Source: a virus (taxonomy: Duplodnaviria > Caudoviricetes). Taken from it: a stretch of DNA of 64,000 nucleotides. The notes beneath the pieces were generated by a model. The model made no database searches and had not been told where the DNA came from. It worked only from the letters and a program-made list of their open reading frames with translations. Location: the IMG/VR virus record IMGVR_UViG_3300014208_000023, positions 352,001 through 416,000 of that record. One strand, 5' to 3'. This document shows, in pieces, positions 114 through 19,967 of the stretch. The position numbers were made by a program, and so were the translations under genes. Position 1 is the stretch's first letter. The number at the start of each line of letters is the position of its first letter.

Positions 114-629
114 CTACCATATCCTATTGCCGTATTCGTCGTGATATGTTTCTTCCGGCGATTTCTTTATAACATAATCAGAGGTAACGAGCATTTTCAT
201 CTTGGTTTTACCATCAAGCACTTTTACCTGATCAAGATAATAGCGACTATCTGTCCTGCTTCTAGCTTTAATGTAATAAATGCCTAGACCAAAAAACAAC
301 AATTGCTCGGCCTCTTCTACATTCTCTCTCGTCCAAGAATTGGATAGCCTAGAGCCCTTCAAAAAGGCTCTAAAAGCATTCATTTCTTGAGAAGAAATGC
401 CATATTTCTTGGCAAAATCATTATAACAACCAGCTATGTTTTGCTCGCCAGCCATCATTACTGATATGGGATCTATCATATAGACGCCTGGAATGGCCTT
501 GCTATGATCGTATTTTGTGCCAGAAAGCATAAATGCTTCATACGAAATTCTTATGTTGAGCTTCTTCATCTTGAAGACCGTGCATAGATAGCGCTGGAAG
601 AAATTGCTCAACATAATATCACCTACCAA
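114..629 (-). CDS. hypothetical protein
   Basis: 171-aa ORF abutting upstream gene; start uncertain; no recognised motif. Confidence 0.6.
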   Translation of the reverse strand: MVGDIMLSNFFQRYLCTVFKMKKLNIRISYEAFMLSGTKYDHSKAIPGVYMIDPISVMMAGEQNIAGCYNDFAKKYGISSQEMNAFRAFLKGSRLSNSWTRENVEEAEQLLFFGLGIYYIKARSRTDSRYYLDQVKVLDGKTKMKMLVTSDYVIKKSPEETYHDEYGNRIW

Positions 630-1605
630 AAAGGTAGTAGTCTTTTACGATTTCATGGACGTAGTGCATCGTATCGCGCGCTTCGTTGATTTCGATATAC
701 TCGTTTGCTCCGGCGCCGAATGAATCGTGATAACCACAAGTCATATTTACGGCGTTTTTGCACATGTTTCTTGACTTAATCGCATACACGTCTGTGTGCA
801 TGCCCGTGACTGGCGCCCTCATCTTACCCATCTTATAGGCAATATCAATCAATCGAGTGCCAACTTCGTAGGTGCAGAGAATCTCATTGTTAATCTTGGT
901 AACAAGCTCGTTGCTTTTGTTACCTCTATCAACTTGAACTAGGATCTCAAACTCCTTAAGCTCTGGAATATCACAAGCCCTAGCTGACTTGAGACCAATT
1001 TCCTCGTCAGTTGGGAAATAAAGCCCCATGTCAAACCCAGTGTTTAGAGCGATCCACGTATTGATCGCAACACCAAGGCGGTCGTCTCCTCCAACCTGGA
1101 TTTTACATAGACGATCCTGGATAATGCGACGCTGTTTGCCGTTATGCATTACCGTCTTTACGACGGGATCGACTCGGTAAGGCTTGTCCTCTTTGATGAT
1201 CTCGTCCTTGATAAGCTGGTATTCTTCTTTTGAAACCTTCTTACCATCCCCAAGCCATTTCTGAAACTCCTCATAACCTTCGTTAGAAGGTCGCGAAGAC
1301 GTTTTTTCGGAATGCTCTCTGCACACGTCAGTATGAGCAACCAAACAAACGTCTGGGTTCTCGCCACGAATGGCTACAAGATTATGAATGTTGTCATAAC
1401 GTTTATCTTTATTCGCGCGTTCTGTTTTATAATTATCTTCGATAAATCTAAAGCCAGCACGGCCGAGCGTTTTCTTTAGCCACTTACGAAGCTCGTATTC
1501 CGGCGCTCGGCAACAATGAAGGATATGCTTCTCGAAGTTGCCATCAGGCTTGACGACATTAACTAGTTTCGCTATTTCTTCAGAAGACATTGATGTGATT
1601 GACAT
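619..1605 (-). CDS. M28/M20-like Zn-dependent peptidase
   Basis: Metal-ligand motifs LVAHTD, GGDDRLG, TDEEIG, QVDRG and C-terminal NMTCGYH..EYI. Confidence 0.7.
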   Translation of the reverse strand: MSITSMSSEEIAKLVNVVKPDGNFEKHILHCCRAPEYELRKWLKKTLGRAGFRFIEDNYKTERANKDKRYDNIHNLVAIRGENPDVCLVAHTDVCREHSEKTSSRPSNEGYEEFQKWLGDGKKVSKEEYQLIKDEIIKEDKPYRVDPVVKTVMHNGKQRRIIQDRLCKIQVGGDDRLGVAINTWIALNTGFDMGLYFPTDEEIGLKSARACDIPELKEFEILVQVDRGNKSNELVTKINNEILCTYEVGTRLIDIAYKMGKMRAPVTGMHTDVYAIKSRNMCKNAVNMTCGYHDSFGAGANEYIEINEARDTMHYVHEIVKDYYLFGR

Positions 1606-1641
1606 AAACTATTTACCTTTCAAGAGTAATTCAGCAGAACT

Positions 1642-1929
1642 TTATTGGTCGCCCACTTTTGAGGAGTGGTATGTGAGTGAGCTTATTGCGAGACTAATAG
1701 TAGCTCCGCCAAAACCCCATAGGACGTGATCGATGATATTGTATTTTCCACTAAATGTTAGTAGATAAATTCCCAGCGCTACCCAAAATCCGAGGCAGAA
1801 GTAGCACTCTAGTAATTTGATAAAAATCGGGTGAATTCCTATCAACTTAATTCTAAGCCAATTCGTAAGATCACTTTCTTTTAGAAAGAAAGTTATTCCG
1901 AATGTAGCTATGAGATATACAAATATCAT
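1642..1929 (-). CDS. small membrane protein, DUF1360-like (CxxC)
   Basis: Three hydrophobic segments, LLECYFCLGFW motif. Confidence 0.5.
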   Translation of the reverse strand: MIFVYLIATFGITFFLKESDLTNWLRIKLIGIHPIFIKLLECYFCLGFWVALGIYLLTFSGKYNIIDHVLWGFGGATISLAISSLTYHSSKVGDQ

Positions 1930-1957
1930 TATTTGCTATTTTCTTTGGACTAGTAAA

Positions 1958-2170
1958 TCAACGCCATCGATACCATATTATTTGGTATCTTAAAACGGGG
2001 GTTGTCTTTAGCAAAAGACAATCACCATTCATAACTGAACCGAAAGCGCTAACATCACCGATAAGAAATTGCTTTTTCTTATCATTAAGAAGAACCTCGA
2101 TTAATGTGCCTGGATTGTTTTTTTCTTGATTGCAAAAATCTGCAAAAGAACCGCTGAATTCCATCCACAT
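1958..2170 (-). CDS. hypothetical protein
   Basis: ORF abuts upstream stop in operon-like chain. Confidence 0.55.
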   Translation of the reverse strand: MWMEFSGSFADFCNQEKNNPGTLIEVLLNDKKKQFLIGDVSAFGSVMNGDCLLLKTTPVLRYQIIWYRWR

Positions 2171-19186: not shown

Positions 19187-19491
19187 TAAAGATTTATTTC
19201 CTCAATGATGGTGAGGTTGTTATTTTCTTTTTTATAGAGAAGAAGGCTGTTAGCATTGATTTTTTCATTAAGAAAAAGAAGCTTAATTTTCTCACATGTA
19301 AGCTTGAATTTCAAAATTAAGAAATATTCATTTGCAAGAATGTTAATGTTATTTTCTTGCAACAGTCTTTCTAAGTCAAGATTATTGTTTTGGCGAGTGT
19401 CAGTTGTTAGGGAAGATTTGTAACGACTTATAAAGTCGCGCGCGGCTTCTAACGTGTATTCTCCAGTGAAAAATGGTCTATATAAAATCAT
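19186..19491 (-). CDS. hypothetical protein (distant paralog of 19574-19894)
   Basis: Shared TLEAA..I motif; last base of stop codon is G1 of copy 5. Confidence 0.6.
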   Translation of the reverse strand: MILYRPFFTGEYTLEAARDFISRYKSSLTTDTRQNNNLDLERLLQENNINILANEYFLILKFKLTCEKIKLLFLNEKINANSLLLYKKENNNLTIIEEINL

Positions 19492-19499
19492 GTTTTTAG

Positions 19500-19569
19500 T
19501 GACCCGTCCAGGGATCGAATCTGGATTACCTTACCGAAGTAAAGTGTTCTGGCATTAAACTAACGGGCC
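19500..19569 (-). ncRNA. tRNA-Glu-like RNA, copy 6
   Basis: Acceptor GGCCCGU/ACGGGUC, 7-nt D loop, loop CUUCGG. Confidence 0.9.
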
Positions 19570-19573
19570 GTAA

Positions 19574-19894
19574 TTATATCTTAAATTCTTTTACTATTTC
19601 AACTTCTAGGCCACCAAAAGGAATGCGTTTGGTACGGACGATATATATCGTATCTCCCGTAATCGATTGTGCGCGGGCCAGTCTATCTAAAGCGTCACAC
19701 TTTGCCGTAGCTCTAACTATGAAGCCATAGCCAAGTGCTCCTATAGATTTAGTTGAATTAATGATTTCAGTCATAGAGGTCGCGTTGGATAACGCTGGCG
19801 CTATATTAAAATAGCCCCTATTCTTCCTTATCCAAGATTCGGCGGCTTCTAGCGTTTTTAGTGACGATAAACTATAACTGGCATATATAAACAT
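19574..19894 (-). CDS. hypothetical protein
   Basis: ATG directly follows the CCA of copy 7. Confidence 0.6.
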   Translation of the reverse strand: MFIYASYSLSSLKTLEAAESWIRKNRGYFNIAPALSNATSMTEIINSTKSIGALGYGFIVRATAKCDALDRLARAQSITGDTIYIVRTKRIPFGGLEVEIVKEFKI

Positions 19895-19967
19895 TGGTGA
19901 CCTGTCTAGGGATCGAATCTAGATTTCCCTACCGAAGTAGAGCGTTTTGGCATTAAACTAACAGGCC
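19895..19967 (-). ncRNA. tRNA-Glu-like RNA, copy 7 (CCA encoded)
   Basis: Compensatory changes CUCUA/UAGGG and CUAGA/CCUAG; loop CUUCGG. Confidence 0.9.

What the first reader, a model, noticed from the sequence alone, without database searches (positions are those of the whole stretch)
619..19967. Candidate system: phage GluRS + non-decoding tRNA-Glu mimics + conserved-Cys paralogs + M28-like peptidase
Seen: within 20 kb on one strand lie an M28-like Zn peptidase, four tandem ~510-aa paralogs with an invariant Cys, a complete GluRS and seven tRNA-Glu-shaped RNAs without a normal anticodon loop. Established: aminoacyl-tRNA is used outside the ribosome (Glu-tRNA in class I lanthipeptide dehydratases; dedicated non-proteinogenic tRNA-Gly with eroded D/T loops for staphylococcal Fem ligases), and the M28/M20 families include glutamate carboxypeptidases. 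Inference: GluRS charges the mimics to build a ribosome-invisible Glu donor pool, the Cys paralogs act as transferases ('writers') with different targets, and the peptidase is an 'eraser' or maturase. The fold and activity of the paralogs are not known to me, so the linkage is a hypothesis resting on proximity.
Basis: partly seen in the sequence, partly recalled or inferred. Interest (0 to 1): 0.88.

Follow-up and report, generated by a model that had tools for sequence, protein, structure and literature searches.

The report
Anticodon-less tRNA-Glu copies in huge phage
A 428-kb phage and its relatives carry several copies of a glutamate-tRNA look-alike whose anticodon loop is replaced by a hairpin cap, always near a normal GluRS gene and a multi-copy family of acyltransferase-fold proteins, so amino-acid transfer off the ribosome is plausible but unproven.

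Summary
The window is part of a complete 428-kb phage genome. On the minus strand lie a full bacterial-type GluRS, four tandem paralogs of about 510 aa with an invariant Cys, a remote M42/M28/M20-like peptidase, and tRNA-shaped RNAs without an anticodon loop. There are eight of these RNAs, not seven; one lies outside the given coordinates.

New findings:
- The RNAs are a real, selected family. I read 25 copies in 6 related phages; on 15 of them 99% of stem positions pair and 14 of 21 pairs show compensatory changes.
- All 25 keep G1-C72 and G2•U71, and 24 keep A73. Among 23 normal tRNAs of these phages, only the two tRNA-Glu share this signature.
- The anticodon arm is a 6-7 bp stem capped by UUCG, CUCG, CUUG or UUAG, so "UUC" is not conserved and decoding is not possible.
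- The paralog core has a GNAT-like fold, the fold of acetyltransferases and of all known aminoacyl-tRNA transferases.
- GluRS, paralogs and mimics co-occur in 6 of 6 genomes.

Against a system: the whole ~20-kb block is syntenic and includes an unrelated flap nuclease. The GluRS keeps a constrained anticodon-binding domain. No step of charging or transfer has been shown. The peptidase link rests on proximity alone.

The parts
619..1605 (-). Remote M42/M28/M20-like (clan MH) peptidase, 328 aa; link to the rest unsupported
   Evidence: PHROG 4191 1e-11; Atlas structure neighbours TM 0.65-0.80; no Pfam or PDB sequence hit; 54-85% identical orthologues near the paralogs in 4 relatives
2171..3727 (-). 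GNAT-like-fold paralog 1 (518 aa)
3724..5301 (-). GNAT-like-fold paralog 2 (525 aa)
5334..6845 (-). GNAT-like-fold paralog 3 (503 aa)
6845..8428 (-). GNAT-like-fold paralog 4 (527 aa; the one modelled). Core is residues ~192-321; invariant Cys221 lies in the alpha1-alpha2 loop
   Evidence: AF2 pLDDT 89; domain model pLDDT 87; Foldseek top 50 all GNAT enzymes; VIA Z up to 7.5
12095..13546 (-). Bacterial-type glutamyl-tRNA synthetase with intact anticodon-binding domain
14154..15176 (-). Conserved 340-aa protein of unknown function (N-terminal CxxC...CxH). It abuts the mimic cluster in G001 and G002
15938..17599 (-). Conserved 553-aa protein with MORN-like repeats, lying between GluRS and the mimic cluster
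17884..17954 (-). Mimic m7 (C(UUCG)G cap, encoded CCA)
17959..18029 (-). Mimic m6 (U(UUCG)G cap), abutting m7
18088..18158 (-). Mimic m5 (encoded CCA)
18430..18503 (-). Normal tRNA-Gln(UUG) inside the mimic cluster
18819..18889 (-). Mimic m4
19115..19186 (-). Mimic m3 (acceptor stem GGUCCUC, close to the phage tRNA-Glu stem)
19499..19569 (-). Mimic m2
19895..19967 (-). Mimic m1 (encoded CCA)
34820..34890 (-). Mimic m8, outside the finding, next to tRNA-Gly(UCC)

Best explanation
SHOWN. The window is a conserved block of a clade of uncultivated phages of about 350-470 kb. The block contains the following.
(a) A canonical GluRS.
(b) A tRNA gene island holding 1-8 copies per genome of a tRNA-Glu-derived RNA. 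The cloverleaf is kept by compensatory change. The acceptor end is fixed: G1-C72 and G2•U71 in all 25 copies, A73 in 24, and CCA or C-N-A in 24. The anticodon loop is replaced by a stable tetraloop on a 6-7 bp stem. These RNAs cannot read codons.
(c) A multi-copy protein family with a GNAT-like core, no recognisable acetyl-CoA motif, and an invariant Cys/Ser/Arg cluster.

INFERRED, most likely mechanism. The RNAs are matured like tRNAs. They are recognised at the acceptor arm by a tRNA-Glu-specific protein, most simply GluRS (phage or host), and are glutamylated. They then act off the ribosome as an amino-acid donor, or at least as an acceptor-arm ligand. The GNAT-fold paralogs are the best candidate users, each copy with its own target. 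All known aminoacyl-tRNA transferases have this fold and read only the acceptor and T arms. I do not count the peptidase as part of the system.
For: - The RNA family is real and under selection. 25 copies in 6 phages keep G1-C72 and G2•U71 in 25 of 25 and A73 in 24 of 25. The caps are UUCG in 19, CUCG in 4, CUUG in 1 and UUAG in 1 (three rows of the table were corrected by eye).
- The signature G1-C72 + G2•U71 + C4-G69 + A73 + 4-nt variable loop occurs in both normal tRNA-Glu and in none of 21 other tRNAs of these phages. In an unrelated huge phage the mimic model's best hit is a normal tRNA-Glu, at 60 bits.
- The G000 lineage also keeps U11-A24, U13•G22 and the missing residue 47. These are major GluRS determinants in E. 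coli (PMC9976931).
- Mimics lie 4-16 kb upstream of GluRS in 6 of 6 genomes. The GluRS lineage is old and compatible with a single origin.
- The paralog core has a GNAT fold by two independent aligners. FemX, ATE1, L-PGS and LFTR share this fold and bind the acceptor arm; a minihelix is enough for ATE1 (PMC10115844).
Against: - No charging, binding or transfer has been tested.
- The GluRS anticodon-binding domain is under the same relative constraint in the phage group as in bacteria (ABD/catalytic identity ratio 0.69 in both). R365, W415, R443 and R470 are invariant. The Arg aligned with T. thermophilus R358 is R in 46 and K in 6 of 52. In E. coli the anticodon bases are the strong determinants, and the mimics lack them.
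- The D-arm determinants are not kept in G001 (A11-U24, C13-G22).
- The whole block is syntenic and includes a flap exonuclease. Spacing between components varies from 4 to 16 kb.
- One relative has five paralogs with no GluRS or mimic within 10 kb.
- The fold matches are modest (Z 5-7.5; Foldseek E about 3e-3), and the best are acetyltransferases. ATE1 appears only at Z 5.1.
- Weak structural relatives occur in Dickeya phage JA29, Agrobacterium phage Atu_ph07 and Cyanophage PP. No phage of those genera appears among the GluRS-bearing records.
Confidence: 0.33

Rival explanations
1. Decoy or sponge. The mimics are non-decoding copies of the tRNA-Glu acceptor and elbow. They soak up a host or competitor factor that acts on the tRNA acceptor end or on GluRS•tRNA-Glu: for example toxins that modify the 3' CCA, extend or cut the acceptor stem, acetylate aminoacyl-tRNA, or phosphorylate GluRS. 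Because they cannot enter translation, they do this without disturbing it. On this view the GluRS is an ordinary translation or back-up gene, and the paralogs are unrelated host-modifying enzymes.
For: - Copies are multiple and tandem, which suggests dosage.
- Only the acceptor end is fixed, while the anticodon is deliberately closed off.
- The GluRS looks fully canonical.
- Phage tRNA genes countering tRNA-directed defences are an established theme (my knowledge, not tested here).
Against: - No known defence or toxin specific to the tRNA-Glu acceptor arm was identified.
- PADLOC gave nothing relevant.
- The best-known tRNA-directed defences cut the anticodon loop, which these RNAs lack.
- Subtypes with different stems are conserved between G000 and its close relative. 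This fits distinct partners better than a bulk sponge.
Confidence: 0.25
2. No system. This is a syntenic block of independent genes. GluRS supports translation of a Glu-rich or codon-biased phage proteome together with the phage's normal tRNA-Glu. The paralogs are acyl-CoA-dependent GNAT-type modifiers of host proteins, diversified by an arms race. The peptidase is a common phage gene. The mimics have some other RNA-level role, such as RNase P/Z processing sites or regulation.
For: - The order of about 20 genes is conserved across the clade, including unrelated ones.
- The phage has a normal tRNA-Glu.
- Jumbo phages commonly carry many GNATs predicted to modify host proteins (PMC7824862).
- The peptidase family is widespread in viruses.
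Against: - Processing sites would not need an invariant G1-C72/G2•U71/A73/CCA.
- Processing sites would not need directly abutting copies with no ORF between them (m6/m7; L025:10252-10401; L038:437-585).
- The small ORFs between the mimics are not conserved, so there is little to punctuate.
- The paralogs lack any Pfam GNAT match and, by inspection, the CoA-binding Q/RxxGxG/A signature.
Confidence: 0.3
3. The mimics are decaying tRNA-Glu pseudogenes or selfish tRNA-derived repeats with no function.
For: - They sit in a tRNA island.
- The T and D loops are partly eroded: a single G where G18G19 would be, and C54/U58 in some copies.
Against: - On 15 copies from three phages 99.4% of stem positions pair and 14 of 21 pairs carry compensatory changes.
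- Copies are retained in all six phages, whose GluRS proteins are only about 44-80% identical.
- The same class of tetraloop cap recurs on different stems.
Confidence: 0.03

Closest known systems
Non-proteinogenic tRNA-Gly of staphylococci, feeding FemXAB (GNAT-fold) peptidoglycan bridge synthesis
   Same: Extra tRNA gene copies are dedicated to a use off the ribosome. The elbow and T region are altered. They are used by GNAT-fold aminoacyl-tRNA transferases that read the acceptor arm.
   Different: - Those tRNAs keep a normal anticodon loop and are charged by the normal GlyRS; here the loop is replaced by a tetraloop.
- The amino acid here would be Glu.
- The carrier here is a phage.
- The transferase link here is only inferred.
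Aminoacyl-tRNA transferases with a GNAT fold (FemX, L/F-transferase, ATE1, MprF/L-PGS, fungal ErdS)
   Same: The paralog core has a GNAT-like fold. These enzymes need only the acceptor and T arms (PMC10115844), which is exactly the part the mimics conserve. ErdS shows that an aaRS and such a transferase can be coupled (PMC7334510, abstract).
   Different: There is no sequence or HMM match to any of these families. ATE1 is only a mid-list fold hit at Z 5.1. An invariant Cys is not a known feature of these enzymes.
Glu-tRNA-Glu-dependent enzymes (LanB/NisB-type lanthipeptide dehydratases, glutamyl-tRNA reductase)
   Same: They use Glu-tRNA-Glu outside translation and recognise the tRNA body or acceptor stem rather than the codon-reading function (my knowledge).
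   Different: No LanB-like or GluTR-like protein was seen in the block (Pfam). The whole genome was not screened for them.
Viral and cellular tRNA-like structures (plant-virus 3' TLS, mascRNA, YrlA, tmRNA)
   Same: These RNAs mimic the tRNA acceptor/T half, are processed or charged by tRNA enzymes, and do not decode.
   Different: The RNAs here are free-standing cloverleaves of about 72 nt, with all four arms, in multi-copy gene clusters in a dsDNA phage. They carry a specific isoacceptor signature and a capped anticodon stem.
Ordinary phage-encoded aaRS and tRNA sets of huge phages
   Same: A GluRS and 14 normal tRNAs in a 428-kb phage are an established type of auxiliary translation gene set.
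   Different: This does not explain the anticodon-less copies.

Membership tests
Bacterial glutamyl-tRNA synthetase (TIGR00464 gltX_bact) | Score above the curated equivalog cut-off; class I catalytic domain plus bacterial anticodon-binding domain | tested here: met
   426.5 bits against a cut-off of 289.95; PF00749 1.6e-84 plus PF19269 5.7e-21; full-length alignment to solved GluRS structures
Bacterial glutamyl-tRNA synthetase (TIGR00464 gltX_bact) | HIGH-type and KMSKS-type class I signature motifs | tested here: met
   HVGN near residue 18 and KLSKR at about 249-253 are visible in the alignments
Bacterial glutamyl-tRNA synthetase (TIGR00464 gltX_bact) | Conserved anticodon-binding residues, including the Arg aligned with T. 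thermophilus R358 (role in reading C36 recalled from memory) | tested here: met
   R367 aligns with Tth R358. It is R in 46 and K in 6 of 52 phage-side sequences. The ABD/catalytic identity ratio is 0.69 in both the phage and bacterial groups
Decoding tRNA (Rfam RF00005) | Cloverleaf with 7-bp acceptor stem, D arm, T arm and discriminator | tested here: met
   36.7-41.6 bits against a gathering score of 29 for five copies in the 11-kb scan, and 39.4 bits for the eighth; covariation in all four helices
Decoding tRNA (Rfam RF00005) | Seven-base anticodon loop with U33 and a three-base anticodon | tested here: not met
   Four-base loop on a 6-7 bp stem in the 25 copies. ARAGORN reports a two-base 'anticodon' or nothing
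tRNA-Glu identity set (E. coli, PMC9976931) | Strong determinants U34, U35, C36, A37 | tested here: not met
   The loop is UUCG, CUCG, CUUG or UUAG, and 'UUC' is not conserved
tRNA-Glu identity set (E. coli, PMC9976931) | Augmented D helix: U11-A24, U13-G22, no residue 47 | tested here: inconclusive
   Kept in 14-15 of 15 copies of G000, its close relative and G002, with a 4-nt variable loop. Not kept in G001 or in part of the 442-kb phage
tRNA-Glu identity set (E. coli, PMC9976931) | Acceptor-stem signature of the local tRNA-Glu (G1-C72, 2-71 pair, discriminator) | tested here: met
   G1-C72 and G2•U71 in 25 of 25 copies, A73 in 24 of 25. The same holds in both normal phage tRNA-Glu and in 0 of 21 other tRNAs of these phages. 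Caveat: a tRNA-Arg(CCU) of an unrelated huge phage also has this signature
GNAT superfamily (acyl-CoA N-acyltransferases) | GNAT core fold (beta1-alpha1-alpha2-beta2-4-alpha3-beta5...) | tested here: met
   Foldseek top 50 are all GNAT enzymes, probability up to 0.99, E from 2.6e-3. The VIA wide search top 50 are GNAT-fold proteins, Z 5.0-7.1, and the second look reaches Z 7.5 over 110 residues. Scores are modest
GNAT superfamily (acyl-CoA N-acyltransferases) | Sequence membership (Pfam or NCBIfam GNAT models) | tested here: not met
   No GNAT model hit even at E<=10; no PDB sequence relative
GNAT superfamily (acyl-CoA N-acyltransferases) | Q/RxxGxG/A pyrophosphate-binding motif between beta4 and alpha3 | tested here: not met
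   By inspection of the conserved columns, beta4 ends in the invariant Y283 and near-invariant P284 with no conserved Gly pair. This is visual inspection only
Aminoacyl-tRNA transferases (Fem, L/F-transferase, ATE1, DUF2156) | GNAT-fold catalytic domain | tested here: met
   PMC10115844 for the shared fold
Aminoacyl-tRNA transferases (Fem, L/F-transferase, ATE1, DUF2156) | Sequence or closest-structure relation to a known member | tested here: inconclusive
   No HMM hit. ATE1 (8tzv) appears at Z 5.1, rank 45, below many acetyltransferases
Aminoacyl-tRNA transferases (Fem, L/F-transferase, ATE1, DUF2156) | Binds aminoacyl-tRNA and transfers the amino acid | not testable with these tools
   Needs biochemistry or a protein-RNA model
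Clan MH metallopeptidases (M28/M42/M20) | Family HMM match | tested here: not met
   No Pfam hit at E<=1 and no NCBIfam hit
Clan MH metallopeptidases (M28/M42/M20) | Fold or feature similarity to family members | tested here: met
   PHROG 4191 'peptidase' 1e-11. Atlas neighbours carry M42/M28/M20 annotations at score 0.94-0.97 and TM 0.65-0.80
Clan MH metallopeptidases (M28/M42/M20) | Co-catalytic zinc ligands (His/Asp/Glu set) | not tested
   No structure alignment of the ligands was made

The most novel reading that the evidence does not exclude
A clade of huge phages runs a private, ribosome-invisible aminoacyl carrier system. Anticodon-less tRNA-Glu derivatives are glutamylated by the co-inherited GluRS. 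A diversified family of Cys-bearing GNAT-fold transferases then moves the glutamyl group (or a derivative made on the carrier) onto different host or phage targets. This would be a new kind of tRNA-dependent post-translational or metabolite modification used in infection.
Probability: 0.15. Interest if true: 0.92.

Novelty: new variant of a known kind. Interest (0 to 1): 0.72.

Why it matters
tRNAs used outside translation are known, but in every studied case they remain able to decode. A conserved, multi-copy tRNA-Glu derivative with its anticodon loop closed off would be the first natural carrier, or decoy, made deliberately invisible to the ribosome.

It offers a defined RNA of about 72 nt and a defined GluRS, so one can test directly whether a GluRS can work without an anticodon. 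It also gives a testable function to a family of at least 572 sequence clusters of unknown phage proteins.

If instead the RNAs are decoys, they point to an unrecognised host attack on the tRNA-Glu acceptor end.

Tried and rejected
- Pfam, PHROGs, NCBIfam and PADLOC gave nothing for the paralogs.
- A PcfJ lead from the Atlas (score 0.84) was rejected: the PcfJ model finds nothing in the genome even at E<=10.
- A profile of the paralog core has no PDB sequence relative. Profiling the 340-aa neighbour gave nothing either.
- No deposited phage genome holds the paralog at sequence level or DNA similar to the region.
- An exact mimic pattern found nothing in IMG/VR. Single-protein and alignment GluRS scans found only the two relatives already known.
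- The first genome-wide look missed the G001 mimics. A direct model search then found them.
- Crude sequence similarity did not rank tRNA-Glu first, so it was replaced by a table of discrete features.
- An aminotransferase and a metallophosphatase lie next to GluRS in distant relatives. The aminotransferase was considered as a possible on-carrier modifying enzyme and dropped, because G000 has no homologue.
- 'Acinetobacter phage MD-2021a' gltX lies in bacterial chromosome DNA and was discarded.
- Three relatives could be read only as gene maps, without DNA, so their mimics are unknown.
- The metagenome-wide pattern scan was not used, because no pattern with 14 fixed bases would be both general and specific.
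- Complex prediction was not run, because no protein-protein binding is claimed.

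
Full report
CONTEXT. The window is bases 352001-416000 of a complete 428,320-bp virus record with direct terminal repeats. Everything discussed here is on the minus strand.

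OBSERVATION: GluRS, PARALOGS, PEPTIDASE. The GluRS at 12095-13546 is a full bacterial-type enzyme. It matches Pfam tRNA-synt_1c at 1.6e-84 and Anticodon_2 at 5.7e-21. It scores 426.5 bits on TIGR00464, above the 289.95 cut-off, and aligns end to end with solved GluRS structures.

The four tandem ORFs at 2171-8428 are true paralogs, 26-30% identical, sharing WDIATMSMRGxxSCQxW. The Cys stays invariant across 51 diverse members. The family is larger than reported. The genome holds about 9-10 members, and the family has 572 clusters at 50% identity in a library of 1.8 billion proteins. None is in deposited phage genomes at sequence level.

The 'M28-like' peptidase (619-1605) has no Pfam, NCBIfam or PDB sequence hit. 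It matches PHROG 4191 'peptidase' at 1e-11 and sits among viral M42/M28/M20 clusters in the ESM Atlas at TM 0.65-0.80. This is a remote, clan-level assignment.

OBSERVATION: THE tRNA-SHAPED RNAs. The seven described RNAs are there. A covariance model finds exactly eight in the whole genome. The eighth is at window 34820-34890, beside tRNA-Gly.

WHAT THE RNAs ARE. Each is a cloverleaf of about 72 nt with a 7-bp acceptor stem, a 4-bp D stem, a 4-5-bp T stem and a 4-nt variable loop. The anticodon arm is a 6-7-bp stem closed by a tetraloop.

I found the same RNAs in five related phages:
- 4 copies in NCBI contig JAWVHH010000028.1 (L025).
- 3 copies in a 406-kb IMG/VR phage (G002).
- 4 copies in a 157-kb fragment (G001).
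- 1 copy in a 353-kb JGI contig.
- 5 copies in a 442-kb JGI contig.

On 15 copies from three phages, 99.4% of stem cells pair and 14 of 21 pairs carry changes on both sides. No shuffle out of 500 reaches the observed values, and structures with one strand slid by 1-3 columns pair in only 25-60% of cells. They are therefore selected RNAs, not decaying pseudogenes.

Across all 25 copies, G1-C72 and G2•U71 are invariant and A73 is present in 24. The 3' tail is CCA in 16, CUA in 6, CGA in 2 and CUG in 1. The caps are UUCG in 19, CUCG in 4, CUUG in 1 and UUAG in 1 (three rows of the table mis-parsed and were corrected by eye). What is conserved is a stable hairpin cap. Decoding is excluded.

The D and T loops are partly eroded. 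There is a single G where G18G19 would be, and some copies have C54/U58.

ARE THEY tRNA-Glu-LIKE? Yes, by discrete features. The phage's own tRNA-Glu(UUC) (G000:28189-28264) and the tRNA-Glu of a relative both have G1-C72, G2•U71, C4-G69, A73 and a 4-nt variable loop. None of 21 other normal tRNAs from these phages has G2•U71.

The G000 lineage also keeps U11-A24, U13•G22 and the missing residue 47. In E. coli these are major GluRS determinants, while G1-C72 and the 2-71 pair are weak ones and the anticodon bases are the strong ones (PMC9976931).

In an unrelated huge phage the mimic model's best hit is a normal tRNA-Glu, at 60 bits. Two caveats apply. The D-stem determinants are not kept in G001. 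A tRNA-Arg(CCU) of another huge phage shares the acceptor signature.

THE PARALOGS. An AlphaFold2 model of the 527-aa paralog built from 51 sequences has pLDDT 89. A model of the core alone (residues 118-352) has pLDDT 87.
- Foldseek against the PDB returns only GNAT enzymes in the top 50, with probability up to 0.99 and E from 2.6e-3.
- An aligner independent of Foldseek, run against 48,161 chains, returns GNAT-fold proteins in all top-50 rows at Z 5.0-7.1. These include ATE1 at Z 5.1 and malonyl-CoA decarboxylase.
- A second look at Foldseek's own matches reaches Z 7.5 over 110 residues.

The scores are modest but unanimous, so I accept a GNAT-like core at residues ~192-321. There is no GNAT HMM match. 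By inspection there is no Q/RxxGxG/A CoA motif after beta4, which ends in the invariant Y283 and near-invariant P284. The invariant residues (S200, T212, S214, R216, G217, C221, W224, R262, Y283, Y340) cluster around the alpha1-alpha2 loop and beta3-beta4.

All known aminoacyl-tRNA transferases (FemX, LFTR, ATE1, L-PGS) use this fold and read the acceptor arm. An acceptor minihelix is enough for ATE1 (PMC10115844). It does not show it: most GNAT-fold proteins use acyl-CoA, and jumbo phages carry many GNATs predicted to modify host proteins (PMC7824862).

Weak structural relatives of the core (E 2e-5 to 4e-3) occur in Dickeya phage JA29, Agrobacterium phage Atu_ph07 and Cyanophage PP. No phage of those genera appears among the GluRS-bearing phage records.

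CO-OCCURRENCE AND SYNTENY. GluRS, paralogs and mimics are all present in each of the six genomes where DNA could be read. The mimic cluster lies 4-16 kb upstream of GluRS on the same strand.

Gene maps of three more contigs show the same order, GluRS ... flap exonuclease ... paralogs. By matching contig sizes, at least 13 contigs carry both GluRS and a paralog.

In a GluRS tree, the bacterial sequences (the named ones Polyangiaceae or Pendulispora) form one clade with 100% support. All phage-linked sequences lie on the other side of that branch. The association is therefore old, but it is essentially one evolutionary event.

The whole ~20-kb block is collinear. It includes a 5'-3' exonuclease, a MORN-repeat protein, a CxxC protein and the peptidase. 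Adjacency alone is therefore weak evidence for shared function. One relative, a 470-kb contig, has five paralogs with no GluRS or mimic within 10 kb, though a normal tRNA-Glu, an RF-1-domain protein and a PTH2 lie nearby.

IS THE GluRS SPECIALISED FOR THE MIMICS? There is no sign of it. The ratio of anticodon-binding-domain identity to catalytic-domain identity is 0.69 in both the phage group and the bacterial clade. R365, W415, R443 and R470 are invariant in 52 phage-side sequences.

The Arg aligned with T. thermophilus R358 is R in 46 and K in 6 of the 52. Its role in reading C36 is from my memory; a paper search returned titles and abstracts only, and I did not read them. The enzyme is thus built to read a real anticodon, presumably that of the phage and host tRNA-Glu. 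Charging of the mimics would be a second, anticodon-independent activity and has to be shown.

MOST LIKELY MECHANISM. The only part of the RNA that never changes is the tRNA-Glu-type acceptor end, and the anticodon is actively closed off. Some tRNA-Glu-specific, acceptor-arm-reading protein must therefore be the selective agent.
- The most economical candidate is GluRS, followed by use of the Glu-charged RNA off the ribosome, with the GNAT-fold family as candidate users (confidence about 0.33).
- The main rival is a decoy for a factor that attacks the tRNA-Glu acceptor end or the GluRS•tRNA complex (about 0.25).
- The second rival is independent genes in a syntenic block (about 0.30).
- The pseudogene reading is nearly excluded (about 0.03).
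- The peptidase as 'eraser' has no support beyond position.

NOVELTY. Four full-text searches found no description of capped-anticodon tRNA-like genes in phages. The closest precedents are the staphylococcal non-proteinogenic tRNA-Gly used by Fem ligases, Glu-tRNA-dependent enzymes, and viral tRNA-like structures. In all of these the RNA either still decodes or is not a free cloverleaf gene family. I rate this a new variant of a known kind. It would become categorically new if RNA-dependent glutamyl transfer by the paralogs were shown.

A further lead: two other GluRS-bearing huge phages, LR756502 and LR756504, carry tRNA-Glu-like genes with abnormal anticodon arms.

Noticed in passing
window 34820-34890 (-): Eighth mimic copy outside the finding's coordinates, 186 nt from tRNA-Gly(UCC) at 35076-35148. 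Its sequence is almost identical to m5.
   Followed up: yes
window 18504-18818 (-): About 315 nt without a convincing ORF between mimic m4 and tRNA-Gln. It has several hairpins with CAAAACC loops and a T-arm-like GGGAUCAAAUCCUC. No Rfam hit at E<=10.
   Followed up: no
window ~27985-28464 and ~56913-57347; G000:73692-74996, 335887-336534, 418744-419505: Further, mostly shorter, members of the GNAT-like paralog family elsewhere in the genome. The family is dispersed as well as tandem.
   Followed up: partly
window 15938-17599 and 14154-15176 (-): A 553-aa protein with MORN-like repeats and a 340-aa protein with an N-terminal CxxC...CxH are conserved between GluRS and the mimic cluster in all five relatives. 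In G001 and G002 the 340-aa gene directly abuts the mimics. Function unknown.
   Followed up: partly
window 18170-18406, 18899-19084, 19186-19491, 19574-19894 (-): The small ORFs interleaved with the mimics have no homologue in any relative. They may not be genes. Two start directly after a mimic's 3' end with no ribosome-binding site visible.
   Followed up: partly
window 52346-52432 (-): tRNA-Asn(GUU) is called with a 17-nt variable arm, which is unusual for Asn. The two tRNA-Tyr and two tRNA-Leu nearby are ordinary long-arm types.
   Followed up: no
LR756502.1:435101-435176 and LR756504.1:461088-461164 (loci L046, L045): Two unrelated GluRS-bearing huge phages carry tRNA-Glu-like genes with abnormal anticodon arms: one has a 6-bp stem plus a UUUC loop, the other an irregular loop. 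ARAGORN calls both tRNA-???. This may be a wider phenomenon.
   Followed up: partly
window 12095-13546 (-): The nearest named cellular relatives of the phage GluRS are Polyangiaceae and Pendulispora (Myxococcota), at 46-48% identity. This is a hint to the host or to the source of the gene.
   Followed up: partly
L027/L038, L028/L037 and three gene maps without DNA: In the more distant relatives a class I/II aminotransferase (PF00155) lies 1-5 kb upstream of GluRS, with a metallophosphatase between them in four of the five. G000 has no aminotransferase homologue.
   Followed up: partly
window 22576-24972 (-): ClpB/ClpA-like AAA+ chaperone of 798 aa, 82% identical in the close relative.
   Followed up: no
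CAKLQH020000003.1:185363-192766 (L039): A record named 'Acinetobacter phage MD-2021a' is bacterial chromosome around gltX (ftsL, mraW, sulfate-binding protein). It is not a phage GluRS.
   Followed up: yes
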